In this document: positions 47,137 to 64,000 of the stretch, in pieces
Layout: each line of letters starts with the position of its first letter
Numbering within the stretch: position 1 is the stretch's first letter
NCBI GenBank assembly: GCA_963833985.1
Contig: CAWIAD010000001.1
Span: 1,152,001-1,216,000 of the forward strand
DNA length: 64,000 bases
From: an uncultured Planctomycetaceae bacterium
GTDB taxonomy: Bacteria; Planctomycetota; Planctomycetia; Isosphaerales; Isosphaeraceae
Direction: 5' to 3'
The notes under the pieces: model-generated
Database searches by the model: none
Told to the model about the DNA's origin: nothing
The model's input: the letters and a program-made list of their open reading frames with translations, nothing else
Translations under genes and position numbers: made by a program

Positions 47137-47186
47137 CACCGACACCCCGCTCCCGGCCCTCGGCATTCATGTCACCGCAGACCACT

Positions 47187-47263: not shown

Positions 47264-48503
47264 GGGAATCATACCGCCAGACTGTCACGCTGGCTCCGGC
47301 GGCGTAACCTTCCAGGTCGGCGGGGACGAGCACGAACCCATCGGCGCGGGTGGTGCTGGAGAGGATCGAAGCACCGCCGATCGCCAGGGGCTCGGCCTGG
47401 CCGTCCACCAGACGTACCCGGGCGTAATCGACGCGTCCCAGCTCCGACGAGAGCTTGTGGCGAAGCGGCAGCGTGACGGCGTGATACGGCCAGTCCGCGG
47501 GCCGCCCGCCCAGGCGGCGGATCATTCGGCCCGCGAACAGGTCATAGGCGCACAGGCAGCTCACCGGATTGCCCGGCAGCAGGACGACCGGGACGCCCCG
47601 CACGAATCCCAGGCCGGTCGGACTGGCGGGCCGCAGCGCCACGCCGTGCACCTCCAGGCTGCCCAGCCGCGCGACGATTCCCGGGGCATGGTCCTCGGGA
47701 CCCGTCGAGCTGCCACCGGAGACGAGCACCACGTCGGAGCACCCGGCGGACTCGGCCAGTGCCGCCTCGATGAGCTCGACGCTGTCTGTGAGGGGACCGA
47801 CCACGCGCGGCAGGCCGCCGTCGCGGCAGGCGAGGGCCGCGAGCATCACGGAATTCATGTCGGCGATCCGATCGTCCCGGGGCGGTGTCCCCGGCGGCAG
47901 CAGCTCATCGCCGGTGACGACGATGGTCACGATCGGCCGACTGACGACCGGAATCGATGACTTCCCCAGTGCGCTCAGCAGCCCCAGGTCCTGGGGACGC
48001 AGGACCCTGCCGGCGGTGAGCACAGGTGCTCCTTCGGACAGGTCCTCCCCTTTACGGCTCACGTGCCGGGCCGGCGGGATGGGCTCGACAACCCGGATCT
48101 CGCCCCCTTGCCGGCGCGTGACCTCCACGGGCACGACCGCATCGGCGCCGGGGGGCATCGGAGCCCCGGTGGCGATCTCCACGGCCTGGCCCGGCCCGAC
48201 GTTTCCCGCAAACCGCCGGCCGGGCCGGGAACGCCCCACGACCTGGAAGAGCGCCGGCGTGTAGCCATCGGCGCCGAAGGTTTCCTCACCGCGGACCGCA
48301 TAGCCATCCATCGCGGCCCGGTCGAACGGCGGCACCGCCGAGCACGCCCGGATGTCCAAGGCCAGAACGCGACCCGACGCCGCGGCAAGCGGCACCTGCT
48401 CCGTGTCGAGCCCGCTGGTCCGCTCGTCGATCAGCGCCAGGACCTCGTCCACGGAGCTCCGGCTGCGGAAACCTCTCCATCTCGGGTCGTGCTGTTGCTC
48501 CAT
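47259..48503 (-). CDS. moeA: molybdopterin molybdotransferase MoeA
   Basis: FDRAAMDGYA, IATGAPMP, TGDEL, SGGSS, LPGNP. Confidence 0.93.
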   Translation of the reverse strand: MEQQHDPRWRGFRSRSSVDEVLALIDERTSGLDTEQVPLAAASGRVLALDIRACSAVPPFDRAAMDGYAVRGEETFGADGYTPALFQVVGRSRPGRRFAGNVGPGQAVEIATGAPMPPGADAVVPVEVTRRQGGEIRVVEPIPPARHVSRKGEDLSEGAPVLTAGRVLRPQDLGLLSALGKSSIPVVSRPIVTIVVTGDELLPPGTPPRDDRIADMNSVMLAALACRDGGLPRVVGPLTDSVELIEAALAESAGCSDVVLVSGGSSTGPEDHAPGIVARLGSLEVHGVALRPASPTGLGFVRGVPVVLLPGNPVSCLCAYDLFAGRMIRRLGGRPADWPYHAVTLPLRHKLSSELGRVDYARVRLVDGQAEPLAIGGASILSSTTRADGFVLVPADLEGYAAGASVTVWRYDSQ

Positions 48504-48774
48504 CGGCAATCCCACCCGTTCGTCGCACCCGGTGCGCGCCCGGCGCCGCAGAGCGCAAGGCTCGATCGTCTGTCATTCTAAAGGACATTCTCGGCCGGCA
48601 AGTGCCCTTTTCCCGACCCAGTGCTTGCAATCGTGATGAACAGGAGTCACGTTGGACATCGTCTGACCCGCCGCGCTGCTTAGAATGTCCGGCGGGCACT
48701 ACCGGCGTGCTGCACGGGATCGACGATCGAGGAAGCTTCGCCTCGGAAAACCGAGGCCAGACAGCGAGGGTGCC

Positions 48775-49833
48775 ATGCGTGGCGACACGCCGATCGCGCG
48801 TCAGTGGAAGCTGCTCAGGATGCTTGGCTGTCGGCGTCTCGGCTTGACCATACAAGAGATGAGCACAGAAACGGGAGTCGGGATCAAGACCATCCGGCGC
48901 GATCTGGACTTTTTCCGCGGCCTTGGCTTCCCCTTGACGGAGCACGTGTGCGAACGGGGCCTCAAGCGGTGGCGACTGGCGGGTGCGCACGTGGAACCGC
49001 CCCTGGCATTCAGGCTCGACGAGGCGATTGCCCTCTACCTGGGCCGGCACCTCATGGACCCGCTGGCAGGAACGCCTTTGTGGGACGCCGCGCAGAGTTC
49101 CTTCCGCAAGATCAAGGCGACGCTCGGCGAAAAGGCCCTCGAGTACATCGAGTCCTTTCGCGGCTTTTACCACCAGACGTCCGTCGGCACCAGCTCCTAC
49201 GCCGCCAAGGCCGAGGTGATCGACGCGATCATGGTCGCACTGGAGGACCGGAAGGCAGTACACATTGCCTACCAGTCCCTCAGGGCCACGGAGCCGGCGA
49301 CCCGAGACATCTATCCCTATGGTTTCATCTACCACCGCGGTAGCCTCTACCTGGCGGCCTTCGCACCCGAGCACGACCGGGTCAAGACCTACAAGGTCGA
49401 TCGCGTCGAGAGCGTCGAGGTCAGCAACCGGCGCTTCGAGCGACCCGCGGACTTCGACCTCGACCGGTTTCTCTCAGGCTCGTTCGGGGTCTTCGAGGGC
49501 GAGGGCGATCTCCTGACGGTGTGCGTCCGCTTTGCGCCGTGCGTGTCGCGGTACGTCAGGGAAGCGCACTGGCACTCCAGCCAGGAGCTCACCCCTCAAA
49601 CCGATGGCAGCCTGCTCGCCCGGTTCCACCTCAACAGCCTCGAGGAATTCAGGGCCTGGATCCTCGGCTTCGGCTCGAACGCTCTCGTGTTGCAGCCGAC
49701 CTCCCTGCGCACCGAGATAGCGGCGGAGGTCGGGCTCATGCTCCGTATGTACGGGCAGGAAGTTGGTGCTGGAGATGACATGAAAGCGTTCGATGATGGG
49801 AATCAGGTCAGGTCTGTGCCAGCGGACAAATGA
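48775..49833 (+). CDS. WYL-domain transcriptional regulator (HTH-WYL-WCX)
   Basis: KTIRRDLDFF HTH; SLYLAAF...KTYKVDRV; AWILGFG; directly upstream of cas genes. Confidence 0.92.
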   Translation: MRGDTPIARQWKLLRMLGCRRLGLTIQEMSTETGVGIKTIRRDLDFFRGLGFPLTEHVCERGLKRWRLAGAHVEPPLAFRLDEAIALYLGRHLMDPLAGTPLWDAAQSSFRKIKATLGEKALEYIESFRGFYHQTSVGTSSYAAKAEVIDAIMVALEDRKAVHIAYQSLRATEPATRDIYPYGFIYHRGSLYLAAFAPEHDRVKTYKVDRVESVEVSNRRFERPADFDLDRFLSGSFGVFEGEGDLLTVCVRFAPCVSRYVREAHWHSSQELTPQTDGSLLARFHLNSLEEFRAWILGFGSNALVLQPTSLRTEIAAEVGLMLRMYGQEVGAGDDMKAFDDGNQVRSVPADK

Positions 49834-49897
49834 GGACGATCGATCCTCAGCGTCATTGCCTTGCGCGAAAGCAGTGCGATCCCGAGGGAGTCATTCC

Positions 49898-50524
49898 ATG
49901 CCAGTCGTTGACCTTGCCTTCGAGCTTGCAGGCAACTCGCTGCCCGTGGACCACGGTTATGAGCTTTTCTCCGCCATTTGCCGCGTCGTCCCGCGTCTGC
50001 ACGGCGACCGGCACATCGGCGTGCATGCCATTCGTGGTCAGGCGGCGAGCGCGGGAACAATCTTGCTCGGAGGCCGCTCGCGCTTGCGGGTGCGCTTGCC
50101 CTCGGAGGAGATCGCGGCTTACCTGGCGCTGGCCGGTTCGGCTCTCGACGTGAACGGCCATCGGCTCCGCGTCGGCATCCCGCACGTCGAGTCACTGATC
50201 CCTACCGCGAACCTGTCCGCACGCATCGTGACCTTCAAGGCCATGGTCGAGCCCGACCCGTTCCTGGCCTGTGTGCGCCGCCATCTGACCGCGCTCGGCG
50301 TTTCCGGCGACCCTCAGCTCGTCCCCTCGACGCGGGAACCCTGGACCGGCCGCCCTTTCCGCCGCGTCCTCCGCGTCAAGGGCCGAGCCATCGTCGGCTA
50401 TGCCCTGCGAGTCCTCGCCTTGACGGCGGAGGAGTCGGTCCTGATCCAGGAGCGCGGTCTCGGGGGGCGAAGGCGATTTGGATGCGGCGTCTTCCTGCCA
50501 TTGAAGGAGGTGAACCCTCGATGA
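49898..50524 (+). CDS. cas6: type I MYXAN-like Cas6 (copy a)
   Basis: VDLAFEL...PVDHGYELFSAI; G-loop GLGGRRRFGCGVF. Confidence 0.92.
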   Translation: MPVVDLAFELAGNSLPVDHGYELFSAICRVVPRLHGDRHIGVHAIRGQAASAGTILLGGRSRLRVRLPSEEIAAYLALAGSALDVNGHRLRVGIPHVESLIPTANLSARIVTFKAMVEPDPFLACVRRHLTALGVSGDPQLVPSTREPWTGRPFRRVLRVKGRAIVGYALRVLALTAEESVLIQERGLGGRRRFGCGVFLPLKEVNPR

Positions 50525-52920
50525 ACACAGACATTTTGTGGGCCAAGAGCAAGCAGCACGAGGAGCAATACCACCCGTCCATGTCGCTCTCCGGTCACCT
50601 GTCGGATGTCCTTGAGGCGGCGATCCGGATCATAGACTCCACCGGTGACGAGCAGCTTCGGGCACTTGGTCTGGACCCGGAGCGGTACGGAGATCGACTG
50701 AGGCGATGCGTGCGGTTGGCCGCGGCCCTCCACGATATCGGCAAGGCAAACGACCATTTTCAGGGAATGATTCGCGGCAAGCGCGATGTGCGTCAGAACC
50801 CGCAGGGCGTACGGCACGAATGGGTGTCGGTTCTGATGCTACGGACACTCAGGGACTGGCTTCTACCGGTATTCGATAAGGCCGAATGCGACTTCGACAT
50901 CGTGGAATGGGCCGTATCCGCACACCACCCAGCTCGCGATCACCAAAGCCCTCCCCCCTCGTGTCCGCCAGGGGCGGGTCCGGAGATAACGCTCCTCACA
51001 GGTCATGACGAGATCCAAGGAATTCTCGACTGGGTTCAAGAAACATTCGAGATTGCCGCCCTCCAACCGAAGCACGGCTCCGAGAAGCGACCACTCGTTG
51101 GCCCGGAAAACGCGTTCACGGAGCTTGCGATTTGGGCGAAGTCGGCTCGCCGCACCTGGAATCGAATGCGTGGCGATAAAGAGGCCTCGCGGTTCGTCGC
51201 CGCGGTCAAGGCCTGTCTGATCGCCGCCGACGTGGCGGGCTCGGTGCTGCCGAGGTCCGGGGTGGACGGATCGACGGATTGGAATTGGATTGCAAGGGCC
51301 TTATCGAACCTGCCGAAATCGGGCGACGTCCAGAAGATCGCCGATCATCGCCTGGACGGCAAACCACCCCGCGAATTCCAGCAAGCGGTCGGGGCTTCTC
51401 ACTGGCCGGTCACTTACGTCAAGGCGGGTTGCGGGACCGGCAAGACCGTGGCCGCATACCTCTGGGCCGCTGTCAACCACCCGACACGCCGGCTCTTCTT
51501 CTGCTATCCCACGACGGGCACGGCCACGGAGGGGTTCAAGGATTACCTGTTCGAGCCGGACGGAGAGCTGGGAGATCTCGGCGCCAGGCTGTTCCACAGC
51601 CGGCGGGACGTGGACTTCGACATCATCCTCGGCACGGGTGCAGACTCGCCGCATGCCGAGGCTGACTCGGCCGCGCGGCTGGAAGCGCTGGAAGCCTGGT
51701 CCACACCCATCGTCGCCTGTACGGTCGATACTGTCCTTGGGCTGGTTCAGAATAACAGGCGCGGTCTCTTTGCCTGGCCCGCTCTCGCCCAGTCGGCCTT
51801 CGTCTTCGACGAGATCCACGCCTACGACGACCGGCTCTTCGGAGCACTGCTCCGGTTCCTTCGAGACCTCCACGGGCTCCCTTGCCTGTTAATGACTGCC
51901 AGCTTGCCGAAGCCGCGCGAGGAGGCGCTCTTTCGGACGATCCGGGATGTCCACGACCTGGACCTGCGGCCGATCGAGGGCCCGCGGGAGCTCCAATTAC
52001 TGCCGCGCTACCATAGGCTGAACGCACCCGGCAATGACCCGCTTCCCCTCGTACAGGCCGAGCTCAGGGCCGGCGGCAAGGTGCTCTGGGTCTGCAACAC
52101 GGTGAGCCGTGTGATGGATGCGGCCGACCGCGCCAGCCAGCTCAATCCGCTCATTTACCATAGCCGGTTTCGCTACGTGGATCGTGTTGAGCGGCACAAG
52201 CGAGTTGTCGAGGCCTTCACTCCCGAACACCATGGCCCCGCGCTCGCGATTTGCAGCCAGGTCGCCGAGATGAGCCTGGATCTGAAGGGTTGCACGCTGC
52301 TCGTCACCGACCTGGCGCCGGTTCCGTCCCTGATCCAGCGGTTGGGAAGGCTGAACCGCCAGGCCGCGCCTGGCAACCCGACCAGGCCATTCGTCGTGGT
52401 GGAGCAAGACGAGAGCTCGCGCGACAGGCACCTTCCTTATGCCGCAGGCGACCTGGACGCGGCCCGGACCTGGCTGGAACGTCTGCCGGAATCGGAGATC
52501 AGCCAGCAGCATCTTGCCGATCACTGGGAGCAACTGGCCGAGAAACCGCCAGAACTCGTGCCGAGCGCCTGGCTCGATGGCGGCCCGTCGACAATTGTCA
52601 CGGATCTGCGCGAACCGTCGCAGGGGATCACGGTGATTCTGGATACCGCGGAGTACCCGGATCACCGTGCGCTCCTGCGTTACGATAACCGGATCCGCGA
52701 GTTGCGTCGCAGGGCGCGCGCCGACCAGCGCAGCCTGAGCCGAGAAGAACGGAAGCCACTCCCGGGGGAGCAGGATCGCCTGGCAGCCGTGACGCTGCCA
52801 ATGCCTCCACCTCACGCTCACATCAGGTGGCGCGAGTGGACGCGCTACAAGAGCATACCGGTCGCGCCAGCCGAAGCCATCCACTATGACCTCGAACGAG
52901 GTGCCCGATGGAACGCCTGA
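50521..52920 (+). CDS. cas3: Cas3 HD nuclease-helicase
   Basis: LHDIGKAN, AGCGTGKT, DEIH, MTAS, QVAEMSLDL, QRLGRLNR. Confidence 0.96.
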   Translation: MNTDILWAKSKQHEEQYHPSMSLSGHLSDVLEAAIRIIDSTGDEQLRALGLDPERYGDRLRRCVRLAAALHDIGKANDHFQGMIRGKRDVRQNPQGVRHEWVSVLMLRTLRDWLLPVFDKAECDFDIVEWAVSAHHPARDHQSPPPSCPPGAGPEITLLTGHDEIQGILDWVQETFEIAALQPKHGSEKRPLVGPENAFTELAIWAKSARRTWNRMRGDKEASRFVAAVKACLIAADVAGSVLPRSGVDGSTDWNWIARALSNLPKSGDVQKIADHRLDGKPPREFQQAVGASHWPVTYVKAGCGTGKTVAAYLWAAVNHPTRRLFFCYPTTGTATEGFKDYLFEPDGELGDLGARLFHSRRDVDFDIILGTGADSPHAEADSAARLEALEAWSTPIVACTVDTVLGLVQNNRRGLFAWPALAQSAFVFDEIHAYDDRLFGALLRFLRDLHGLPCLLMTASLPKPREEALFRTIRDVHDLDLRPIEGPRELQLLPRYHRLNAPGNDPLPLVQAELRAGGKVLWVCNTVSRVMDAADRASQLNPLIYHSRFRYVDRVERHKRVVEAFTPEHHGPALAICSQVAEMSLDLKGCTLLVTDLAPVPSLIQRLGRLNRQAAPGNPTRPFVVVEQDESSRDRHLPYAAGDLDAARTWLERLPESEISQQHLADHWEQLAEKPPELVPSAWLDGGPSTIVTDLREPSQGITVILDTAEYPDHRALLRYDNRIRELRRRARADQRSLSREERKPLPGEQDRLAAVTLPMPPPHAHIRWREWTRYKSIPVAPAEAIHYDLERGARWNA

Positions 52921-53014
52921 CGGCATCAATGAATGGGGACTTACCCCGAGATTCGGTTATTTCGCAAGTACCTCATTGCTCAACGCCTTGCGGCGATCCT
53001 GGTACAGATTGCGG
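52906..53014 (-). CRISPR. degenerate mini-array (repeat-spacer-repeat), antisense to cas genes; putative cas-regulating crRNA-like RNA
   Basis: Minus strand CCGCAATCTGTACCAGGATCGCCGCAAGGCGTTGAGCAA + 35-nt spacer (52941-52975) + GTCCCCATTCATTGATGCCGTCAGGCGTTCCATCG; both repeats keep the GCC-N4-GGC hairpin of the main repeat. Confidence 0.8.
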
Positions 53015-53025
53015 TCCTTTCTTAG

Positions 53026-53052
53026 TTGACACCAAGGGGGCTCGAATGTCAA
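53026..53052. promoter_or_regulatory. inverted TTGACA-N15-TGTCAA element between the mini-array and the sigma-like ORF
   Basis: Exact hexamer inverted repeat; no clean -10 at canonical spacing on either strand. Confidence 0.45.
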
Positions 53053-53057
53053 TAGTT

Positions 53058-53095
53058 ATGTGAGGAACCTGAGAAATAAGGAGCCACCCCGGTGA
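53058..53095 (+). promoter_or_regulatory. putative Cascade target (ATG PAM + partial protospacer) over the RBS of ORF 53092
   Basis: ATG|TGAGGAACCTGAGAAATAA vs spacer TGAGGTACTTGCGAAATAA; RBS AAGGAG at 53078-53083. Confidence 0.75.
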
Positions 53096-53337
53096 GAGAC
53101 ATAGACCTCGTTGACGAGATTACCATGTTCCTAAGGTCCACGACAGCCTATCGGATCTGTCGGCCATACGGTGCTGAGCCGCGTGATGCACTTGGCGAAA
53201 TCTACCTCCGCTTGCTCGGCGGCGCCAGTAAGCCGATTCGAAAGCCGACGGCATGGGTGAGGACGAACGCGACTTTTCTTCTCCGGAATTACCTGCGGCG
53301 CGAGAACAGCCGACTCTACCAGCCCTCGGAGATCTAA
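53092..53337 (+). CDS. sigma-70 region 2-like polypeptide
   Basis: DALGEIYLRLL...PTAWVRTNATFLLRNYLRRE resembles ECF sigma2; AAGGAG RBS, GTG start. Confidence 0.6.
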   Translation: MRDIDLVDEITMFLRSTTAYRICRPYGAEPRDALGEIYLRLLGGASKPIRKPTAWVRTNATFLLRNYLRRENSRLYQPSEI

Positions 53338-53338
53338 C

Positions 53339-53617
53339 ATGCCCCTCTTTTCTCTCCAATCGCTTCAATCTCTGGGAACTGACTTTAAGGACGAGGCCAG
53401 GTATGCCCTTGAGTCATTCGAGCTTCGCGATCTTGTGGCTCGGGAGCTCATGCGACTCCCCCAGCGGGAGAGGGAAGCCATAACGGCCCTCGCCGGTCTC
53501 AGCACCGAGTCATGCCGATCTGTTGCTCGAAAACACGGCGTGTCAGCGCAGACGGTTTCCAATTGGGCCAAGGAGGCTCAGCGCAAGTTGCGTCCCAAGC
53601 TGGAGGCTTACGCGTGA
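53339..53617 (+). CDS. sigma-70 region 4-like HTH polypeptide
   Basis: LMRLPQREREAI...SVARKHGVSAQTVSNWAKEAQRKLR; GTGA overlap with cas6b. Confidence 0.75.
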   Translation: MPLFSLQSLQSLGTDFKDEARYALESFELRDLVARELMRLPQREREAITALAGLSTESCRSVARKHGVSAQTVSNWAKEAQRKLRPKLEAYA

Positions 53618-54219
53618 GGTTCGTACTCGATATTTGTTGGCCGCTCTTACCTCCAGGGCGATTCCCCGTTCACTACCAATATTATCTGCTAGCCAGTCTC
53701 TCGCGAATAGTGCCCGAGATTCACTCCACCCCCACCCTGGGTGTCCATCCGATTCGTGGAATGAAGTCCGCCCTCGGGTTTCTGGAAATCGATCGGCGCA
53801 GTGCGGTAACACTCAGAGCACCTGCCGAGGTTCTTCCGACGCTGGTCCCGTTAGGAGGAAAGAAACTCGACATCGGCGGGTGTCAAGTCCGGCTGGGCGT
53901 TCCACGACTCACCGCCCTGGCGCCCGCAGAGCGCCTTCGAGCCGACCTCGTCACTATCAAAGGATACATGTCGATGCCCGAATTCGAGTCGGGGGTAAGG
54001 AGACAGCTGTCCGCGCTTGGGATGAGCGATGAAGTCCGTGCGGAGGTTGGGCGTCGACGGGTCGTCCAGATACGGGGACAGACCATCGTCGGCTTCGGCC
54101 TTCGCCTCTCCGGTCTCTCCGAGGACGAGTCGGTCCGAGTTCAGCAGTACGGACTCGGGGGACGGCGACACTTCGGCTGCGGCCTATTCCAACCTGACTT
54201 GACGGAGATAACGTCGTGA
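53614..54219 (+). CDS. cas6: type I MYXAN-like Cas6 (copy b)
   Basis: PVHYQYYLLASLSR, GVHPIRG, G-loop GLGGRRHFGCGLF; GTGA overlap with cas8. Confidence 0.9.
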   Translation: MRFVLDICWPLLPPGRFPVHYQYYLLASLSRIVPEIHSTPTLGVHPIRGMKSALGFLEIDRRSAVTLRAPAEVLPTLVPLGGKKLDIGGCQVRLGVPRLTALAPAERLRADLVTIKGYMSMPEFESGVRRQLSALGMSDEVRAEVGRRRVVQIRGQTIVGFGLRLSGLSEDESVRVQQYGLGGRRHFGCGLFQPDLTEITS

Positions 54220-55910
54220 AGGGCGCTGAAAAGAAAACGAGGTTACAAGAGGGTCCAAGCCATTTGACCATGCGCCTCTTCGCCCCGGGTATGTCGGTCC
54301 TGCACCGCGCTGGGCTGGGCGGGCTGGCCTGCACGCTGAATGCGGTGGAAGATCGGCATCGAAGCGGGCTGTTGCGCCCCGAGCGATTGCCCGCGCCGTT
54401 CGAGGGCGACAAGCCCCCCTGGGAGATCGACGAGCAGTCGGTGACGCTCCGGTTCGGCAAGCCCGAGAACGCGGGCGAGTACCTGAGGAAGCTTTTCGAG
54501 TTTGCCTTTCAAATTCGCAAGGACGGCCTGATCAGCCTGCCTGGGCAATTCCAAGGGGAGTTATCGGCAGCCGTGCTCGCCGACTTGCAATTGGGGCTCA
54601 CGCTGACGTTCTTGCAGCACGGCCGGGTTCGGGCTCTTGCGAAGGAGGCCACCGTAGCCAGCTATGATACTGACGGAGATGGTGTTCCCGGAGTCGTGGT
54701 CCAGTACAAGAAGTGCTCGGCGTTCAAGCACCAGAAGGGCTGGGAATCGCTGGTTGGCGGCAGTGGCGCCCTGGTATCCGGTTCCATCGCTGTCGATGGG
54801 CCCATCAGTCCCGGCTCGGTCGTGAGGCACGTGGCATACACCGGCGATACGGGTATCGAGGATCCTCCGGAGCGGATGCTTCCTCTGTACTTCGCGCTCG
54901 TCGGCTGCCTGGCCCTGCCCGTGAACCGTGGCGTCGCGGCGCTCATCGTTCCGGATGTCACGGACCTCTCCGAGTTCGTCCTCGATCGTGCGGCGATGAC
55001 CCCGACAACAGCAACGCAGTGCCAGATCGCCGGTGCCGCCGACGCCGCCTTCAGCGCCCAGGTGCGAATCCGCCGCAATCCAAGGAGATCCGCCGAGGTG
55101 GAGTCGAGGGCTCGCCAGGCGCTGTCTGGGTCCGCAATCCCGGCATGCTACGCCATGACCTTCACGCCGACTCCCTGGGCCAGTCAGCAGAAGTCTCGCG
55201 TGGCGACGATCATCGTTCCTCAGGGAGAGAAGCGAACGCTGGACCTCTACGAGCGAGCCGCCACTCACCTGCCCGCAAGGATTGCGACTCGCACGGTCCG
55301 AGAATCGACCGGGCGTGGCAAGCAGCGCACGGTGACCGAGCGCCAGGAGTCGTTCCGAGCCGATAGCATTGTCCGCCCCCTGGTCGCCGAGAACCTGGCA
55401 TTGGGCCGCCCCTGGTATTCCGGGTTCGTGAAACTACTGACCAAGACAAACCCAGCGACCGGCAACCCTTACCGCAACCAACTTCCCTTCGAGCGCGGAG
55501 GATTGAATGCCATGATTTCAGATCCCCAGATGTGGGACGACCGGGGAGAGGAGCTTATCGTCAAGGCCGTCCACGAGGCCATCCGGCAGACCCTTGGCCG
55601 GATCAAGCAGGAGACCGATGGGCCGGGGAACAAGCCGCCCTCACAGGCGACCAAGAACCGCTGGACGAGGTTCCAGGAGAAACTGCGGCTCTCGCTGGCC
55701 GAATCGAAAACCCCAAACGACGCCCGCCATGCCCTGTGCAATCTGTTCAGCCGGGCTGGCCGCGTGCCCGCTCTGGCCGAGTATTGGCAGCTTGTGCTGC
55801 CCAAGCTCGCCGACCGCCGCTGGCAACTGACGCGCGACCTGGCCTTGCTCGCCCTCGCGAGCTATTCCGGCAGATCCAGCGAAAACGGTGACGAACAACC
55901 TCAACAGTGA
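54216..55910 (+). CDS. cas8: Cas8 large subunit (Cas8a1/Cmx1, MYXAN-like)
   Basis: APGMSVLHRAGLGGL, TFLQH, PWASQQKSR, DLALLALASY; position before cas7. Confidence 0.88.
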   Translation: MKGAEKKTRLQEGPSHLTMRLFAPGMSVLHRAGLGGLACTLNAVEDRHRSGLLRPERLPAPFEGDKPPWEIDEQSVTLRFGKPENAGEYLRKLFEFAFQIRKDGLISLPGQFQGELSAAVLADLQLGLTLTFLQHGRVRALAKEATVASYDTDGDGVPGVVVQYKKCSAFKHQKGWESLVGGSGALVSGSIAVDGPISPGSVVRHVAYTGDTGIEDPPERMLPLYFALVGCLALPVNRGVAALIVPDVTDLSEFVLDRAAMTPTTATQCQIAGAADAAFSAQVRIRRNPRRSAEVESRARQALSGSAIPACYAMTFTPTPWASQQKSRVATIIVPQGEKRTLDLYERAATHLPARIATRTVRESTGRGKQRTVTERQESFRADSIVRPLVAENLALGRPWYSGFVKLLTKTNPATGNPYRNQLPFERGGLNAMISDPQMWDDRGEELIVKAVHEAIRQTLGRIKQETDGPGNKPPSQATKNRWTRFQEKLRLSLAESKTPNDARHALCNLFSRAGRVPALAEYWQLVLPKLADRRWQLTRDLALLALASYSGRSSENGDEQPQQ

Positions 55911-55931
55911 ACTTCCTGGAGAAAAAAACCC

Positions 55932-56819
55932 ATGAGCCTGCACGTATTCGCGAACTTCGTGACACCCTTTGGCGCGGCGGCCAATAACCGGGCCGAGACC
56001 GAGGGCAACATCACGACCCTTCAAAAGCTCGTCTGGATGGGGGAGACACACACCACCGTGAGCGCCGAGGCCATCCGCTTTGCTCTTCGAAGGCGACTCG
56101 CTTCCCTTGATGAGCGGGGTTCGAACCGCAAGTGGGACGAGGACGAGAGGAACAACACCTGGCAGGACTGGACATTCAAGGGATGGACCTCGAAGGGCGG
56201 CGAGACATTCATCGACGACGACCTGCTCGGCTTCATGACCGCCGAGGCCGCGAAGGAAGAAGGCGAGTCGGGCACCGCCAACGTCCGCCGGGCGGTGCTG
56301 GAGGTGACGCGGGCCGTATCGCTCACCCCGTGGTCGGGTGACGTCACGTTCAATGCAGCATCGCCGGGCGCCACACCCTCGGCACAGAAGAAAGGGAGCA
56401 ACCCGGTGCCATACGGCACCGAGGTCCACGCGACTCGCTACCAGTACGGCATCGCGCTGACGCCCGAGCGGCTTCGCGACAGCTCCCGGGCGGCGAAGGC
56501 CATCGAGGCGCTCTGCAATCTCGGCACGGTCGCCGGTAATCACGGCCGTTTTCTTTTCGACTTCTCACCCGACGCCGTCGTCTTCCGCATCACCCAGGAT
56601 CCCGCGCCACGCCTGCTGTACTGCTTCGAGACAGCGGATGACGGCAAGAGCATCATCGCCCCGCGCCTGGAGGCCCGCGTCAGCGCTGGCGACATCGACA
56701 GCAGCGAGCTGATCATCGCGGGGGTCAAGGTCCAGGGTGTCGATACGGAAAAGGGCGTGAAGGCCGCCTGCGCCCAGGCCGTCACCAGGATCAACGAGTC
56801 CTTGAAGGCCAAGAGGTAA
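55932..56819 (+). CDS. cas7: Cas7/DevR
   Basis: AANNRAETEGNITTLQK, TVSAEAIRFALR, FIDDDLLGFM, VAGNHGRFLFDFSP. Confidence 0.93.
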   Translation: MSLHVFANFVTPFGAAANNRAETEGNITTLQKLVWMGETHTTVSAEAIRFALRRRLASLDERGSNRKWDEDERNNTWQDWTFKGWTSKGGETFIDDDLLGFMTAEAAKEEGESGTANVRRAVLEVTRAVSLTPWSGDVTFNAASPGATPSAQKKGSNPVPYGTEVHATRYQYGIALTPERLRDSSRAAKAIEALCNLGTVAGNHGRFLFDFSPDAVVFRITQDPAPRLLYCFETADDGKSIIAPRLEARVSAGDIDSSELIIAGVKVQGVDTEKGVKAACAQAVTRINESLKAKR

Positions 56820-56822
56820 TCC

Positions 56823-57458
56823 ATGCTCGGCTTGTACGTTACCGTTCCGATCGCCTGCTTCCGGAAAGGTCTGGCGCGGGAGTATCTCGAGACCGAGCCC
56901 CTGCCACCGCCCGCGACGTGCTACGGCTTCCTGCTCTCGTTGGTCGGTGAAACCGATCGGCGGCGGCACATCGGTGCTCGCGTTTGCCCCGCCCTGCTCA
57001 ACAAGCCGGAGATGAGCGTCGTCATCAGGACCGTCTGGCGCGTCAAGAAGACGCCCCTGGGCTCGTCGGGAAATACCCGGCCTGACTATCAGCAACTTCT
57101 CTCGCCGATCCGTCTGCTCATCTGGCTCGACTCCTCCGAGGAAAAGGGCGAGCAGCCAGGGCTGGAAGACCGCGTATCCGTCGCGCTTGACGAGCCTGGC
57201 CGCATTTCCCGGTTCGGCGGCCTCTCCCTCGGCGAGAGCACGCACCTGGTTGATGAGGTTCGGCGCCCACGCGCCGGCGACGACGAAGACGTTCCAGCGC
57301 GGGCGTATCTCCTGGCCGAACGGGGACGCCTGTCGCTGCCGGTCTGGGTTGACCATGTCGGATCGGCCGGCACCCGCTTCGCGGTCGGGGAGCTTGTCGA
57401 TCAGCACGGAATGAAGCCGCCGGATCGAATCCGGATGCCCATCATTACTCCAACATAG
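56823..57458 (+). CDS. cas5: Cas5/DevS
   Basis: VPIACFRKGLAREYLET...PPPATCYGFLLSLVGE, GGLSLGESTHLVD. Confidence 0.93.
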   Translation: MLGLYVTVPIACFRKGLAREYLETEPLPPPATCYGFLLSLVGETDRRRHIGARVCPALLNKPEMSVVIRTVWRVKKTPLGSSGNTRPDYQQLLSPIRLLIWLDSSEEKGEQPGLEDRVSVALDEPGRISRFGGLSLGESTHLVDEVRRPRAGDDEDVPARAYLLAERGRLSLPVWVDHVGSAGTRFAVGELVDQHGMKPPDRIRMPIITPT

Positions 57459-59749: not shown

Positions 59750-62700
59750 CCGCCCTCGACCATGACGCCGAAAGGCGTTGAGCACTCATGGCCTCATCGG
59801 CGTCGATCTCCGAAAAGCCCCGCCCTCGACCATGACGCCGAAAGGCGTTGAGCACAAGGCCGGCGGCTGGGACCACAGCCGAAATCACCCCCGCCCTCGA
59901 CCATGACGCCGAAAGGCGTTGAGCACGAATACCCGACGAGATCATCGTGCTGGTGCCCTATCCGCCCTCGACCATGACGCCGAACGGCGTTGAGCACATG
60001 GCAATAGCTTCTGGTCGCGCCAGGTCGAGATGCCGCCCTCGACCATGACGCCGAAAGGCGTTGAGCACCCCTTTTTCTCGCCGTGCTGAATCGCCGTGGC
60101 GATCCGCCCTCGACCATGACGCCGAAAGGCGTTGAGCACAGAACGGGATGCACCCATAGTCGTGCGGCTCCTGGCCGCCCTCGACCATGACGCCGAAAGG
60201 CGTTGAGCACACCCGGCCGCGGCTGCGGTGCGGTCGAACCCGGATTGACCGCCCTCGACCATGACGCCGAAAGGCGTTGAGCACGAAACCGCCCCTGGGC
60301 CCTTACCACCAAGTAACGCCCGCCCTCGACCATGACGCCGAAAGGCGTTGAGCACATCGAACAGACCGCCGATCACGCCAAGCCGGCCGACCGAGCCCGC
60401 CCTCGACCATGACGCCGAAAGGCGTTGAGCACATCCTAACGACCCGAGCACATATAACACCGCGGACATCCGCCCTCGACCATGACGCCGAAAGGCGTTG
60501 AGCACACCGGCCGGCGGCGATCCGGTCGCGGACGCACGGTGACCGCCCTCGACCATGACGCCGAAAGGCGTTGAGCACGTTGAGGAACATCACCCCGTCG
60601 TCCCGCAGCACTCGCCCGCCCTCGACCATGACGCCGAAAGGCGTTGAGCACACGGCACGCCGAACAACGCCAACCCCATCAATGTGCCCGCCCTCGACCA
60701 TGACGCCGAAAGGCGTTGAGCACCGGCCTCGCCCTGGCGGACGTGGAGATCAGCGCAGCCCGCCCTCGACCATGACGCCGAAAGGCGTTGAGCACAACGT
60801 GAACGTCCCGGTGGTCAACACCGGCGACGCCCCGCCCTCGACCATGACGCCGAAAGGCGTTGAGCACGTGCTATTATTGAGTCAGTGGAGATGAGTCCTG
60901 AACCGCCCTCGACCATGACGCCGAAAGGCGTTGAGCACGAGCTGCGTGCGGATGCGCGTGTGGCGGAGCTGCCGTTCCGCCCTCGACCATGACGCCGAAA
61001 GGCGTTGAGCACGCTACCGCACCCACATTGTGCCGCTGGCCCACGAGGCCGCCCTCGACCATGACGCCGAAAGGCGTTGAGCACTCTACCGTTCGATGAT
61101 TCCCGGCGGCGCGTTCCTGCCCGCCCTCGACCATGACGCCGAAAGGCGTTGAGCACGGTGATCGGCGACGAGATCATCCCCGGCTCGAAGCTCCGCCCTC
61201 GACCATGACGCCGAAAGGCGTTGAGCACGTCTCCTTCGCCACGAAGCGGGGGACAGTGATGCTCCGCCCTCGACCATGACGCCGAAAGGCGTTGAGCACG
61301 TCAACCAGCGCGCGCTTCATACTCTGGAACAGCGACCGCCCTCGACCATGACGCCGAAAGGCGTTGAGCACCAATTGCTGCCCGCCGCCGATCAGAGGCC
61401 GGTCCTCCGCCCTCGACCATGACGCCGAAAGGCGTTGAGCACCGGCCTCGATGGTCGGATGAGTCCCCAGGCTCGCCCGCCCTCGACCATGACGCCGAAA
61501 GGCGTTGAGCACGCCCCGTCCGGCCTGCACTGGGGTGCAAGCCAGCATCGCCCGCCCTCGACCATGACGCCGAAAGGCGTTGAGCACGCTCGCCGTTGCG
61601 CGGGCGATGGCAATCACAGGCGCCGCCCTCGACCATGACGCCGAAAGGCGTTGAGCACACGCTGGCCCGTCTTGGCCTCGGCCTGGTCGAGATCCCGCCC
61701 TCGACCATGACGCCGAAAGGCGTTGAGCACCCGAGATCGCCGGCATTGAGGTAGACGCCCGCAACCGCCCTCGACCATGACGCCGAAAGGCGTTGAGCAC
61801 CACCTACCTCACTTTCTCGTCAATCTGATAGGGTCCGCCCTCGACCATGACGCCGAAAGGCGTTGAGCACAGATCGAATCCAAGAGAGTCTCCTGGCTCT
61901 GGCAACCGCCCTCGACCATGACGCCGAAAGGCGTTGAGCACTACGGCAGTTCGTCCCATGTTCCCACTAATACATCCGCCCTCGACCATGACGCCGAAAG
62001 GCGTTGAGCACCACCCGATGTCCTCAAGGTCACTCGAACCCTGGTTCCGCCCTCGACCATGACGCCGAAAGGCGTTGAGCACTCCCCGAGATGCTCGTGA
62101 GCTTCGGCAATGAGATCCGCCCTCGACCATGACGCCGAAAGGCGTTGAGCACCCAGTGATTTTGATGGCGTGCGGCATCAGGTGAACAGCCCGCCCTCGA
62201 CCATGACGCCGAAAGGCGTTGAGCACCCCCCAGGCCGTGCAAGCTCCCGGGGACGTGGGCGCCGCCCTCGACCATGACGCCGAAAGGCGTTGAGCACTAC
62301 CTACACGCGGGGCGGCACCGGGATCACCTTGACCGCCCTCGACCATGACGCCGAAAGGCGTTGAGCACGGGTTGGTGGCGGTGACCGAGAGCGTGGTCGA
62401 GGTCCGCCCTCGACCATGACGCCGAAAGGCGTTGAGCACACCCGCAAGGGCCGGAACGTCGCGGCCTACCCGCCCGCCCTCGACCATGACGCCGAAAGGC
62501 GTTGAGCACTCGCCGGCAGTGTGCTGGATCCGCTGGATGCCGTTCCCGCCCTCGACCATGACGCCGAAAGGCGTTGAGCACAACTGCGGATCTTCATGCC
62601 CCGCGTGAGCCCGAAAGCCGCCCTCGACCATGACGCCGAAAGGCGTTGAGCACCAGAACCCCGACGCGCGGGTTGATGGCGAGCTGGGGCCGCCCTCGAC

Positions 62701-64000
62701 CATGACGCCGAAAGGCGTTGAGCACTATCGGCGGCCAAGGGCCAGGGCGGCAACGCCCGTCCGCCCTCGACCATGACGCCGAAAGGCGTTGAGCACAGCC
62801 GCCGGCGGACGGACCGCCGCAGAACGGCAAGCCGCCCTCGACCATGACGCCGAAAGGCGTTGAGCACACGATCCTCGGGCACTCGCCCGACATCGCGGAC
62901 CCGCCCTCGACCATGACGCCGAAAGGCGTTGAGCACATCCGCGTCGGCGACACGATCATCGCCGTGACGGTCCGCCCTCGACCATGACGCCGAAAGGCGT
63001 TGAGCACCTGGGCAGGCTGCCTCTTCGTCCCGTACTCCGGACCGCCCTCGACCATGACGCCGAAAGGCGTTGAGCACCCGAGACGATGGTCCAGGAGTTG
63101 CCAGTCCTTCAGCCGCCCTCGACCATGACGCCGAAAGGCGTTGAGCACCAGGAGCTGTCTCGTCCGACTCCCTCACCCAGATCGCCGCCCTCGACCATGA
63201 CGCCGAAAGGCGTTGAGCACGCGCTGGGCGTGGCGAGGCTCTTGAACGACCCCGGCCGCCCTCGACCATGACGCCGAAAGGCGTTGAGCACAGTTCACCC
63301 CGAGCCCAGACGACCTTGCTGACTACCCCGCCCTCGACCATGACGCCGAAAGGCGTTGAGCACATCGGTAAGGACTTCTGGATCGGCCGGCTGATCTGGT
63401 CCGCCCTCGACCATGACGCCGAAAGGCGTTGAGCACACCGTGCCGCCGCCCGGCCAGGCCGTCGGAGCGCCATCCCGCCCTCGACCATGACGCCGAAAGG
63501 CGTTGAGCACACCAGTTCGTGCAGCTCCCAACGGCCGTCAACCAGGCCGCCCTCGACCATGACGCCGAAAGGCGTTGAGCACACGGTAATAGCTTCTGGT
63601 CGCGCCAGGTCGAAATGTCCGCCCTCGACCATGACGCCGAAAGGCCTTGAGCACACATATTCGGCGCAGCGTGCCAGCGCAGCTTGCGCCCGCCCTCGAC
63701 CATGACGCCGAAAGGCGTTGAGCACCACTTCGACACCAGGCGGGATGCGCTCGCGGATCGCCCGCCCTCGACCATGACGCCGAAAGGCGTTGAGCACAAG
63801 GAGCTGGAGGAGAACCCGCCGGCCCGGCTGCCCCGCCCTCGACCATGACGCCGAAAGGCGTTGAGCACGGCGCTGGACGCCGCGGCGGTCGCCGTCGTCC
63901 TTCTGGCCCGCCCTCGACCATGACGCCGAAAGGCGTTGAGCACCGGTTTATCCGGCTGAAGAAGGCCGGGACAATCGGCCGCCCTCGACCATGACGCCGA
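59750..64000 (+). CRISPR. CRISPR array, 36-nt repeat CCGCCCTCGACCATGACGCCGAAAGGCGTTGAGCAC, about 60 repeats/59 spacers (continues beyond window)
   Basis: Manual count; spacers about 33-41 nt; hairpin CGCC-GAAA-GGCG then 8-nt TTGAGCAC handle; single-base variant repeats start at 59962 and 63619. Confidence 0.99.

What the first reader, a model, noticed from the sequence alone, without database searches (positions are those of the whole stretch)
52906..53095. Hidden antisense mini-CRISPR whose spacer targets the RBS of the adjacent sigma-like/cas6b/Cascade genes, with an ATG PAM
Seen: two degenerate repeats on the minus strand (53014-52976, and 52940-52906 overlapping the cas3 stop) keep the hairpin, and the first keeps a TTGAGCAA handle. 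They flank a 35-nt spacer, TGAGGTACTTGCGAAATAACCGAATCTCGGGGTAA. At 53061 the plus strand reads TGAGGAACCTGAGAAATAA, preceded by ATG: 16/19 identity, with mismatches only at positions 6, 12 and 9 (9 would be a rU:dG wobble), then pairing collapses. Established: type I Cascade does not pair every 6th position; ATG is the PAM reported for MYXAN-like I-B systems; PAM-proximal partial pairing gives binding without Cas3 cleavage, as in CreA/CreR-type regulators. Inference: Cascade loaded with this RNA represses the downstream genes and so senses its own level or its inhibition.
Basis: partly seen in the sequence, partly recalled or inferred. Interest (0 to 1): 0.92.

Follow-up and report, generated by a model that had tools for sequence, protein, structure and literature searches.

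The report
Cascade self-repressing mini-CRISPR guarding a sigma-like gene
A degenerate one-spacer CRISPR hidden between cas3 and the Cascade genes very probably makes a guide RNA that parks the system's own Cascade complex on the promoter of a sigma-factor-like gene and the Cascade operon; this kind of self-regulation is already known, here in a subtype where I found no published description.

Summary
On the minus strand at 52906-53014 lie a repeat-like psiR1, a 35-nt spacer and a psiR2 hairpin that overlaps the cas3 stop. psiR1 matches 18 of 20 bases of the repeat's 3' core, the only such match outside the array in the 10.2-Mb genome. Spacer bases 1-19 match 53061-53079 (+) at 16 of 19, behind an ATG.

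The locus is type I-B "MYXAN". Six of six loci carrying a sigma-like gene plus a second cas6 between cas3 and cas8 have the same antisense mini-array. Spacers and targets differ between loci but stay matched. PAMs are ATG in five and ATA in one. Three further loci carry the element at the operon head (ATG twice, ACG once).

Across all nine, the 15 ordinary positions among 1-17 match in 121 of 135 cells. Positions 6 and 12 match in 3 of 18, which is the type I Cascade signature. AYG, then ATA, is the published PAM preference of a MYXAN-type Cascade.

This is a CreR-type Cas-regulating RNA: a new member of a known kind. Its unusual feature is the first repressed gene, an ECF-like sigma factor that is usually split into two ORFs. 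No expression data were available, and repression is inferred.

The parts
52906..52940 (-). psiR2: degenerate distal repeat. Its hairpin core GATGCCGTCAGGCGTT lies at 52912-52927 and overlaps the cas3 stop codon (52918-52920).
   Evidence: The block AACGCCTGACGGCATCAA is invariant in the 4 group-A loci. It is absent from the cas3 ends of the loci without the sigma insertion listed.
52941..52975 (-). psiS: 35-nt spacer of the mini-array. Bases 1-19 (52975 down to 52957) match the target.
52976..53014 (-). psiR1: proximal repeat-like unit. Hairpin CGCC-GCAA-GGCG followed by the 8-nt 5'-handle TTGAGCAA (52976-52983).
52913..52983 (-). Predicted mature CreR-like RNA of about 71 nt (8-nt handle, 35-nt spacer, psiR2 up to the 3' base of its hairpin). 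Inferred from the canonical Cas6 cut; not observed.
   Evidence: Inference. A 71-nt crRNA with a full spacer-repeat unit is reported for a MYXAN-type I-B system (PMC11096372).
53026..53052 (.). Palindromic promoter-like element TTGACAC-N13-GTGTCAA between the mini-array and the target. It offers a TTGACA -35-like hexamer in both directions.
   Evidence: It is the only occurrence in the genome, found once on each strand at the same place. It recurs in the same gap in L019, L025, L038 and L034, 4 of the 5 other sigma-type loci. Promoter function is inferred; the sigma-70 consensus scan found no promoter.
53058..53060 (+). PAM ATG.
   Evidence: AYG/ATA preference of MYXAN-type Cascade.
53061..53079 (+). 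Partial protospacer, 16 of 19 identical to psiS, mismatches at positions 6, 9 and 12. It is followed by GGAG (53080-53083) and the GTG start at 53092.
53092..53337 (+). Sigma region-2-like ORF (81 aa), the first gene downstream of the target.
   Evidence: Pfam Sigma70_r2 E=2.2e-4, below cut-off. Aligns to the N half of the fused L025 protein, whose model finds ECF sigma factors first.
53339..53617 (+). Sigma region-4-like ORF (92 aa), starting 1 nt after the previous stop codon.
   Evidence: NCBIfam TIGR02937 7.4e-7 and Pfam Sigma70_r4 3e-4, both below cut-off. Alignment.
53614..54219 (+). Second cas6 (Cmx6 family). The longest ORF starts at 53512; the start at 53614, overlapping the sigma-4 stop, is inferred from the homologues.
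54216..57458 (+). cas8 (Cas8a1/Cmx1, 54216-55910), cas7 (55932-56819) and cas5 (56823-57458): the Cascade genes downstream in the same gene string.
   Evidence: all above the curated cut-offs.
50521..52920 (+). cas3 (HD plus helicase). Its last codons and stop lie inside psiR2. The start at 50521 is my estimate.
59750..64000 (+). Main CRISPR array. It runs on past the window: 90 repeats of 36 nt in the genome, spacers mostly 35-36 nt.

Best explanation
The stretch 52906-53014 (minus strand) is a CreR-type regulatory mini-CRISPR of a type I-B (MYXAN-variant) system.

It is probably transcribed leftwards from the palindromic element at 53026-53052. Cas6 would cut it at the two repeat-like hairpins to give an RNA of about 71 nt with the normal 8-nt 5' handle. 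The RNA would be loaded into Cascade (Cas8-Cas7-Cas5-Cas6).

Bases 1-19 of its spacer pair with the DNA at 53061-53079, next to an ATG PAM. This site lies between the promoter-like element and the ribosome-binding site of the first gene of the string sigma2-like / sigma4-like / cas6 / cas8 / cas7 / cas5.

Pairing stops after about 19 of 35 nt, so no full R-loop forms and Cas3 is not recruited. Cascade simply sits there and blocks transcription. The operon would then be held down in proportion to free, active Cascade. It would be released when Cascade is soaked up by array crRNAs or blocked by anti-CRISPRs.

Shown here: the anatomy, its uniqueness in the genome, its conservation, spacer-target covariation, the PAM and the sixth-position signature. 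Inferred: transcription, processing, loading, repression, the promoter, and co-transcription of the string.
For: 1. System type. Cas6/Cmx6, Cas8a1/Cmx1, Cas5/Cmx5, Cas7/DevR and Cas1-MYXAN all score above the curated cut-offs. All cas ORFs are open.

2. psiR1 is unique in the genome. psiR1 and psiR2 keep the repeat's hairpin in register.

3. Comparative test. A Cas7-anchored scan gave 20 loci. Of these, 17 hold the cas3-cas8 junction. 4 of the 17 have a sigma-like gene plus a second cas6 inserted there. All 4, plus the window and a metagenome locus L038, carry a solo antisense repeat-like unit in the cas3-sigma gap. That is 6 of 6.

4. In each of the 6, the spacer's best match within +-600 nt lies on the opposite strand, 82-125 nt upstream of the spacer (distances printed for 5 of the 6). 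The PAM is ATG in 5 and ATA in 1. Shuffled spacers did as well in 0 of 500 trials for 5 loci and 14 of 500 for L019.

5. Three more elements sit at the operon head, between the WYL regulator gene and a small ORF followed by cas6. L017 has an ATG PAM with mismatches at 6, 10 and 12. L012 has ACG with mismatches at 6 and 12. L022 has ATG with 10 of 12 matched and mismatches at 6 and 12.

6. Over all nine elements, positions 1-5, 7, 8 and 11 match in 9 of 9 while taking 2-4 different bases. Position 6 matches in 2 of 9 and position 12 in 1 of 9. Over positions 1-17 the sixth positions match in 3 of 18 cells against 121 of 135 for the rest. Fisher p is 2e-10; the loci are related, so this overstates.

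7. The PAMs fit the measured preference of a MYXAN-type I-B Cascade (AYG best, ATA close second; PMC11096372).

8. In the window's genome, the only site scoring 14 of 15 or better that also has a valid PAM is the one 86 nt from the spacer.

9. The genes behind the target overlap or abut, which fits one transcription unit.

10. The mechanism has been demonstrated experimentally for I-B, I-E and V-A CreR, and for an I-F1 mini-array.
Against: No RNA data: no RNA run was listed for this stretch, so transcription, strand and processing are unproven.

The sigma-70 consensus scan found no promoter in 52700-53700. The promoter assignment rests only on a conserved palindrome.

The whole 141-nt region does not fold better than shuffles (z = -1.09).

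psiR2 alone is not significantly repeat-like (316 of 5000 random segments score as well).

The system's own PAM could not be derived. No protospacers were found in the phage collection, in one viral-contig scan, or by local BLAST of 268 spacers.

L019's match is modest (12 of 15; 14 of 500 shuffles do as well). For L022 the ATG-flanked site is only the second-best hit under the 18-nt score.

The six sigma-type loci fall into two related groups, so they are not six independent observations.

In L023 and L034 the target lies about 100 nt upstream of the start codon. In L012 and L017 it is on the same strand as the mini-array. The geometry relative to the promoter is therefore not uniform.
Confidence: 0.82

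Rival explanations
1. Safeguard or alarm module (CreTA/CrePA-like) rather than plain autoregulation. On this reading the real regulated product is the sigma-like protein. It is kept silent by Cascade. When Cascade is lost or inhibited it is released, and it either harms the cell (addiction or abortive infection) or switches on other genes. This rival overlaps with the best explanation; it differs only in what the output is.
For: In all nine elements the target lies directly upstream of a small ORF that precedes cas6. In the six mid-operon loci that ORF is sigma-like.

The mini-array plus sigma-like gene plus cas6 occurs at two different places in the operon.

Protein cargo repressed by a CreA RNA is published (CrePA, abstract and outline read). 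Cargo genes, including transcriptional regulators, behind mini-arrays are published.
Against: No toxin-like family hit.

The Cascade genes follow in the same string with overlapping or abutting genes, so derepression raises Cascade too, which is plain autoregulation.

The palindromic promoter-like motif occurs nowhere else in the genome. The array leaders share motifs whether or not the locus has the sigma-like gene. No regulon is therefore visible.

The sigma-likeness of the L012, L017 and L022 ORFs is weak or absent.
Confidence: 0.25
2. A DNA or RNA inverted repeat with another role. The spacer and target form a 19-bp imperfect inverted repeat about 85 nt apart. It could be a cas3 terminator or attenuator, a 5'-UTR structure, or an operator for a dimeric regulator such as the neighbouring WYL protein.
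For: A terminator-like hairpin followed by a T-rich run is predicted on the plus strand at 52993-53012, inside psiR1. A WYL/WCX regulator gene lies upstream at 48685-49833. A true palindrome lies between the two arms.
Against: A stem or operator does not explain the following:
- the conserved A-Y-G or ATA triplet exactly 5' of the target arm in 9 of 9 elements;
- the free drift of positions 6 and 12 while positions 1-5 and 7-11 co-vary;
- the repeat-derived handle abutting position 1;
- the psiR2 hairpin at spacer distance.

In L012 and L017 the arms are direct, not inverted, so no stem can form there.
Confidence: 0.04
3. A decayed, functionless remnant of an old array or of a failed spacer acquisition.
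For: Both repeats are degenerate, and psiR2 alone is not significant. The published mini-array survey regards some mini-arrays as degraded repeats, for example those near type III loci.
Against: The element is kept in 6 of 6 sigma-type loci whose Cas7 proteins are only 63-80% identical to the window's. Spacer and target co-vary, the PAM is conserved, and blocks of psiR1 and psiR2 are invariant.
Confidence: 0.03

Closest known systems
CreR (Cas-regulating RNA) and CreA degenerate mini-CRISPRs (preprint 10.1101/2023.03.10.532045; abstract, passages and section 8 read)
   Same: A psiR1-psiS-psiR2 mini-array in a cas intergenic region. psiR1 keeps the 5'-handle bases and psiR2 keeps the 3' hairpin. 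The spacer is only PAM-proximally complementary to a site with the cognate PAM at or next to the effector-gene promoter. The proposed outcome is Cascade autorepression that senses crRNA load and anti-CRISPRs.
   Different: The subtype is the MYXAN variant of I-B in Planctomycetota. That text contains none of 'Myxan', 'Planctomyc', 'Gemmat', 'sigma' or 'Myxococc'. The first repressed gene is a sigma-like gene, not a cas gene. psiR2 overlaps the cas3 stop codon. Nothing has been shown experimentally here.
Regulatory mini-arrays / crRNA-like RNAs of Shmakov et al. (PMC10120712; abstract and sections 22 and 24 read)
   Same: A standalone repeat plus a degraded distal repeat. It is transcribed opposite to cas3. 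The seed lies next to the better repeat. The partial target carries a PAM in a cas promoter (cas6 for I-B). Mismatches at sixth positions are noted. Cargo genes, including transcriptional regulators, can sit between the mini-array and the cas genes.
   Different: Cargo regulation is described there for I-D clades. The main text does not mention a sigma factor or Planctomycetes. Only 2 small supplementary files were readable, and they hold no planctomycete term. Whether these loci are in the full data set is unknown.
Negative autoregulation of the Myxococcus xanthus dev operon by DevT/DevR/DevS (Cas8a1/Cas7/Cas5) (passages of 10.1101/2023.07.26.550624, and of review PMC8616872)
   Same: A Cascade of the same protein families (the DevR and DevS families hit). 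It represses its own operon about 10-fold. The first gene of that operon is a small non-Cas regulator (devI, 40 residues). The review calls the mechanism unknown.
   Different: No guide RNA is known there. The review states that matching spacers seem absent and that Cas6 and Cas3 activity is not needed. I could not reach a Myxococcus genome with these tools, so no mini-array was looked for there.
CrePA: a CreA-repressed protein toxin in Acinetobacter I-F (10.1101/2024.01.05.574328; abstract and outline only)
   Same: A protein-coding cargo gene whose promoter is repressed by a Cascade-type effector loaded with a degenerate crRNA.
   Different: The cargo here looks like a sigma factor, not a cell-division toxin. 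It is followed by the Cascade genes themselves.
[quoted passage not shown]
   Same: [quoted passage not shown]
   Different: DdvS has a membrane anti-sigma partner and activates the cas promoter. Here no anti-sigma gene is seen, and the sigma-like gene is itself the target of Cascade.

Membership tests
CreR / regulatory mini-array (crRNA-like RNA) | Two repeat-like units flank one spacer. The proximal unit keeps the 5'-handle bases and the distal unit keeps the Cas6 hairpin. | tested here: met
   The same layout is seen in 8 other loci.
CreR / regulatory mini-array (crRNA-like RNA) | Lies inside the cas locus, next to the promoter of the effector genes. | tested here: inconclusive
   The position between cas3 and the sigma/cas6/cas8 string is shown. 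The promoter itself is only inferred from a conserved palindrome. The consensus scan found none.
CreR / regulatory mini-array (crRNA-like RNA) | The spacer is only partly (PAM-proximally) complementary to a nearby site that carries the system's PAM. | tested here: met
   16 of 19, then no pairing; ATG PAM. The PAM class comes from a homologous system in the literature, not from this system's own protospacers.
CreR / regulatory mini-array (crRNA-like RNA) | Conserved in related loci, with spacer and target changing together. | tested here: met
   6 of 6 sigma-type loci and 3 operon-head loci. Positions 1-5, 7, 8 and 11 match in 9 of 9 while taking 2-4 different bases.
CreR / regulatory mini-array (crRNA-like RNA) | The RNA is made, processed by Cas6 and loaded into the effector, and it represses the target promoter. 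| not testable with these tools
   No RNA run was listed. No bench data exist.
CreR as opposed to CreA (no coupled toxin) | No toxin gene under the same control. | tested here: inconclusive
   The first controlled gene is sigma-like, with no toxin family hit. Its effect when overexpressed is unknown.
Type I-B CRISPR-Cas, MYXAN variant | Cas6/Cmx6, Cas8a1/Cmx1 (Csx13 N and C domains), Cas5/Cmx5/DevS, Cas7/DevR, Cas1-MYXAN fused to Cas4, Cas3 and Cas2, next to an array. | tested here: met
   Cas6, Cas8, Cas7, Cas5, Cas1-MYXAN and Cas2 score above the curated cut-offs, and the Cas3 core and HD domain models do too. Array. The gene order differs from the cas6-cas8 order of L003: here it is cas6-cas3-[sigma-cas6]-cas8.
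ECF (group 4) sigma-70 family | A sigma-2 domain and a sigma-4 domain joined by a linker. | tested here: inconclusive
   Pfam r2 2.2e-4 and r4 3e-4, and NCBIfam TIGR02937 7.4e-7, are all below the cut-offs. The AlphaFold model of the fused L025 form has pLDDT 88.5: two four-helix domains and a disordered linker at residues 73-94. The listed Foldseek hits are essentially all sigma-factor chains, ECF sigmas first, over 160-189 columns. However E is only 5e-3 to 0.3 and TM 0.27-0.41.
ECF (group 4) sigma-70 family | Binds core RNA polymerase and directs it to a cognate promoter. | not testable with these tools
   No data.

The most novel reading that the evidence does not exclude
The mini-CRISPR is the off-switch of a CRISPR-controlled sigma switch. 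Free Cascade loaded with this RNA silences a two-piece ECF-like sigma factor. It would then fire the palindromic, two-way promoter that drives both the guide RNA and the Cascade operon, and perhaps other genes. Cascade occupancy would thus become a burst-and-reset transcription programme. The mini-array, the sigma-like gene and cas6 would be a portable cassette, since they are found at two positions in the operon. The same logic, a hidden guide RNA, would explain the unexplained 10-fold self-repression of the Myxococcus dev operon by DevT/DevR/DevS.
Probability: 0.2. Interest if true: 0.8.

Novelty: new member of a known kind. Interest (0 to 1): 0.52.

Why it matters
It extends RNA-guided Cas autoregulation to the MYXAN branch of type I-B, in Planctomycetota. 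The comparative signature is unusually clean. From sequence alone it gives the PAM (AYG or ATA), the seed, and the unpaired sixth positions of this Cascade.

It also shows a conserved pairing of such a guide with an ECF-like sigma gene, usually split at the linker, as the first repressed gene. My library searches found no paper that links mini-arrays with sigma factors. Searches found no such mention in the two key papers.

It suggests a concrete experiment for an old question: how the MYXAN-type DevTRS proteins of Myxococcus repress their own operon. The review read calls that mechanism unknown.

Tried and rejected
Expression: no RNA holder was listed for 52300-53700.

PAM from protospacers, three attempts:
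- The array (59750-64000) against the phage collection gave only chance-level hits (E of 0.1 or worse).
- One viral-contig scan with the core shared by two near-identical spacers gave 0 matches.
- Local BLAST of 268 spacers from 12 arrays against the genome and all loci gave only short chance matches and spacer duplicates.

Known RNA families: Rfam with the E-value threshold on 52500-60500 matched only the array repeats, below gathering score (CRISPR-DR23 and DR33). Nothing matched at 52900-53100.

Promoter scan: none found in 52700-53700.

Relatives: 61 relatives and 401 genomes of the phylum, searched with Cas6, gave only distant loci (45% identity or less).

Other solo repeat-like hits with 3 mismatches were treated as chance. 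L013:3255 was examined and has no PAM-flanked target. L021:89, L029:4051, L033:4009, L025:2626 and L025:13309 were not followed up.

L003 is the closest non-sigma relative of the inserted Cas6. It has unrelated genes upstream and no mini-array.

The metagenome scan with the sigma-4 alignment gave 9 loci, of which only L038 is a true relative.

A sigma regulon was sought and not found. The palindrome is unique in the genome. Array leaders share motifs with or without the sigma gene.

Sigma-likeness of the operon-head ORFs: no Pfam hits. Profile matches are weak: L012 hhalign probability 44%, L017 hmmsearch E=0.015, and L022 only a 15-residue motif.

Myxococcus: none of the 14 control genomes holds a Cmx6 gene, so the dev operon could not be inspected.

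Earlier notes of this scan: nothing near this place.


Full report
1. WHAT IS IN THE WINDOW

The 3' part of the window holds a complete type I-B CRISPR-Cas locus of the MYXAN variant.

The genes run in this order on the plus strand:
- a WYL/WCX regulator gene, 48685-49833 (Pfam WYL 3.7e-17, WCX 2.4e-17);
- a first cas6, 49793-50524;
- cas3, about 50521-52920 (the start is my estimate);
- a 171-nt gap;
- two small ORFs, 53092-53337 and 53339-53617;
- a second cas6, up to 54219;
- cas8, cas7, cas5, a cas4-cas1 fusion and cas2;
- an array that starts at 59750.

Cas6/Cmx6, Cas8a1/Cmx1, Cas7/DevR, Cas5/Cmx5/DevS, Cas1-MYXAN and Cas2 all score above NCBIfam's curated cut-offs, as do the Cas3 core and HD domain models.

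The array has 90 repeats of 36 nt in the genome. Spacers are mostly 35-36 nt.

In 13 related arrays the 5' 14 nt of the repeat vary. The 3' 22 nt (hairpin plus GTTGAGCAC) are nearly constant. Together with the leader lying on the cas2 side, this fixes the plus strand as the crRNA strand and TTGAGCAC as the 8-nt 5' handle.

psiR1. On the minus strand, 52976-52995 matches the repeat's 3' 20 nt at 18 of 20. It is the only non-array hit in the window; 0.01 hits are expected. It is also the only hit with 3 or fewer mismatches outside the array in the whole 10.16-Mb genome. With three single-base insertions, the 39 nt at 52976-53014 align to the full repeat at 31 of 36. None of 5000 random segments scored as well.

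psiR2. 35 nt further on, 52906-52940 is not significantly repeat-like by itself (316 of 5000 random segments score as well). It does carry the hairpin core GAYGCC-N4-GGCG. About 5e-4 such cores are expected in a 30-nt window. It folds in the same register as a real repeat, and the hairpin contains the cas3 stop codon.

Spacer and target. Spacer bases 1-19 equal 53061-53079 on the plus strand at 16 of 19, with mismatches at positions 6, 9 and 12. ATG precedes the site at 53058-53060. GGAG follows at 53080-53083, and the GTG start of the first small ORF is at 53092. Scoring the 15 non-sixth positions of the first 18 nt over both strands of the genome, two sites besides the spacer itself reach 14. 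Only the one 86 nt away has an AYG or ATA PAM.

3. COMPARATIVE EVIDENCE

A Cas7-anchored scan of one genome per species gave 20 loci, nearly all from Planctomycetota MAGs.
- The usual gene order in these loci is (WYL)-cas6-cas3-cas8-cas7-cas5-cas4/1-cas2.
- Of the 17 loci that hold the cas3-cas8 junction, 4 have the two small ORFs plus a second cas6 inserted there, as the window does: L019, L023, L025 and L034.
- A metagenome scan with the second small ORF added L038.

All six of these loci have a solo, antisense repeat-like unit in the cas3-to-small-ORF gap.

In each, the downstream spacer's best match within +-600 nt is on the opposite strand. It lies 82-125 nt upstream of the spacer in the five loci for which one search printed the distance. 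The PAM is ATG in five loci and ATA in L038. Shuffled spacers did as well in 0 of 500 trials for five loci and in 14 of 500 for L019.

In the four closest loci, psiR1, psiR2 (AACGCCTGACGGCATCAA on the plus strand) and a palindrome are conserved blocks, while the spacer and target differ.

The psiR2 hairpin at the cas3 end is present in the six sigma-type loci. It is absent from the cas3 ends of the loci without the insertion listed.

Three more elements sit at the head of the operon, between the WYL gene and a small ORF that precedes cas6:
- L017 is a three-repeat mini-array. Its first spacer has an ATG-flanked target with mismatches at 6, 10 and 12.
- L012 has an ACG PAM with mismatches at 6 and 12, and then from position 17 on.
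- L022 has an ATG PAM with 10 of 12 matched and mismatches at 6 and 12. This site is only the second-best under the 18-nt score.

In L012 and L017 the target is on the same strand as the mini-array.

Tabulating all nine elements:
- Positions 1-5, 7, 8 and 11 match in 9 of 9 loci while taking two to four different bases.
- Position 6 matches in 2 of 9 and position 12 in 1 of 9.
- Over positions 1-17, sixth positions match in 3 of 18 cells and the others in 121 of 135.
- Matching decays after about position 17.

The loci are related, so Fisher's p of 2e-10 overstates. The pattern is nonetheless that of a type I crRNA-DNA hybrid in which every sixth base is flipped out.

4. THE PAM

I could not derive the PAM from protospacers. 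The passages read from PMC11096372 report on the Synechocystis 6714 type I-B system, which that paper calls Myxan. Its Cascade binds AYG best and ATA as a close second. The nine targets carry ATG seven times, ATA once and ACG once.

5. WHAT IS REPRESSED

The two small ORFs give sub-threshold hits:
- Sigma70 region 2 for the first ORF (2.2e-4);
- Sigma70 region 4 (3e-4) and TIGR02937 (7.4e-7) for the second.

In L025 the two parts are one 167-aa ORF. Its AlphaFold model has pLDDT 88.5. It shows two four-helix domains joined by a disordered linker at residues 73-94. The Foldseek rows listed are essentially all sigma-factor chains, led by the ECF sigmas SigL, SigH, SigE and AlgU, over 160-189 columns. 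The scores are weak, however (E 5e-3 and above, TM 0.27-0.41).

In the other five loci the gene is interrupted exactly at the linker, in a different way each time:
- the second part lies in a different reading frame in the window, L019, L023 and L034;
- an in-frame stop followed by a new ATG separates the parts in L038.

Both halves stay open and conserved. The genes abut or overlap through to cas6. I read this as a two-piece ECF-like sigma factor, not as decay. A natural two-subunit sigma, B. subtilis SigO-RsoA, is recalled from memory and comes from no call.

The inserted Cas6 proteins group together with L003, whose cas6 is followed directly by cas8 (support 90/84). The Cas6 proteins of the operon-head elements do not join that group.

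6. PROMOTER (INFERRED)

Between psiR1 and the PAM lies TTGACAC-N13-GTGTCAA at 53026-53052. This element is unique in the genome. It is present in the same gap in L019, L025, L038 and L034.

It offers a TTGACA hexamer in both directions. It would place one start about 6-8 nt before psiR1 and the other at about the first target base. The sigma-70 consensus scan found no promoter, so this remains a proposal.

7. MECHANISM AND RIVALS

Best reading (0.82): a CreR-type guide RNA loads Cascade, which binds the ATG-flanked site without Cas3 cleavage. Cascade thereby represses the sigma-like / cas6 / Cascade string, giving feedback on free Cascade.

Rivals:
- An alarm or safeguard reading, in which the sigma-like protein is the real output, overlaps with the best reading (0.25).
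- A plain inverted repeat or operator (0.04) does not explain the PAM, the sixth-position pattern, the handle, or the direct-orientation cases.
- A functionless remnant (0.03) does not fit the conservation.

8. COMPARISON WITH WHAT IS KNOWN

The mechanism is published.
- CreR preprint (abstract, passages and section 8 read): autorepression shown for I-B, I-E and V-A. creA-like elements were seen in I-C, I-D, I-F and I-U.
- Shmakov et al. (abstract and sections 22 and 24 read): mini-arrays transcribed opposite to cas3. Targets carry a PAM at the cas8, cas10d or (for I-B) cas6 promoters. Sixth-position mismatches are noted. Cargo genes include transcriptional regulators.
- Neither main text contains Myxan, Planctomyc, Gemmat, sigma or Myxococc. 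The two readable supplementary files hold no planctomycete term. Their full data sets were not visible to me.
- Library searches that combined mini-array or autorepression terms with 'sigma factor', and Planctomycetes with type I-B and ECF sigma, found no paper making this link.

Hence this is a new member of a known kind, with a conserved sigma-like first gene as its particular feature.

M. xanthus DevT/DevR/DevS (Cas8a1/Cas7/Cas5) repress their own operon about 10-fold. The review read says the mechanism is unknown. A hidden guide of the present kind is a testable candidate, but I could not inspect that genome.

9. LIMITS

- No expression data.
- No protospacer-derived PAM.
- The promoter and co-transcription are inferred.
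- The six sigma-type loci form two related groups.
- The sigma-likeness of the operon-head ORFs is weak.

Noticed in passing
window 53092-53617; L019 5360-5898; L023 2709-3216; L034 7094-7602; L038 7629-8219; L025 7178-7681: The ECF-like sigma gene is cut into a sigma-2-like and a sigma-4-like ORF exactly at the linker in 5 of 6 loci. The cut differs each time: a different reading frame in four loci and an in-frame stop in L038. The gene is fused only in L025. Both halves stay conserved. This may be a natural two-subunit sigma factor.
   Followed up: partly
window 48685-50524: A WYL/WCX-domain regulator gene overlaps the start of a first cas6 paralogue upstream of cas3. The locus therefore has two cas6 genes, about 39% identical, and two candidate regulators (WYL and sigma-like) as well as the guide RNA.
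   Followed up: partly
window 53026-53052: Palindrome TTGACAC-N13-GTGTCAA, unique in the 10-Mb genome and conserved in 4 of the 5 other sigma-type loci. It could be a two-way promoter or an operator for a dimeric regulator.
   Followed up: partly
L017 685-823 (minus strand): A three-repeat antisense mini-array. The first spacer has an ATG-flanked target 17 nt upstream of the downstream ORF's ATG. No match for the second spacer was listed within +-700 nt.
   Followed up: partly
window 59998-60032 and 63583-63618: Spacers 4 and 54 of the array are near-identical (26 nt shared). They start at the same position, as if the same protospacer was acquired twice from variant invaders.
   Followed up: partly
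G000:C1, array beyond the window (spacer 70): One apparent 107-nt 'spacer' contains a variant repeat (GGAAGG loop) that my pattern missed. This is the 90th repeat.
   Followed up: no
leaders: window 59530-59749 and the 220 nt upstream of the arrays in L018, L020, L025, L036, L037 and others: Array leaders share conserved blocks (for example TCTTTGACAA...GATGCTTGA, and GCTTGAAA about 40 nt before the first repeat), whether or not the locus has the sigma-like gene.
   Followed up: no
L021 3114-3506 (minus strand): The 1.1-kb gap between the WYL gene and cas6 holds a 130-aa ORF. By eye its N-terminus looks like a PIN-domain (VapC-type) protein. I ran no family search on it. It may be toxin-antitoxin cargo inside a cas locus.
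   Followed up: no
L025 4045-4729, 8325-9976, 11554-13217: In L025 the first cas6, cas8 and cas4/cas1 each appear as two tblastn pieces. These are likely frameshifts or assembly errors in that MAG.
   Followed up: no
window 10677-16609: Families of 84-300-nt direct repeats (80-88% identical, spaced 2.3-3.0 kb apart) suggest a tandem set of paralogous genes. They are unrelated to the CRISPR locus.
   Followed up: no
window 45217-48515 (minus strand): Two MoeA-type molybdopterin biosynthesis genes lie just upstream of the CRISPR-Cas locus. Repeat family D11 links them.
   Followed up: no
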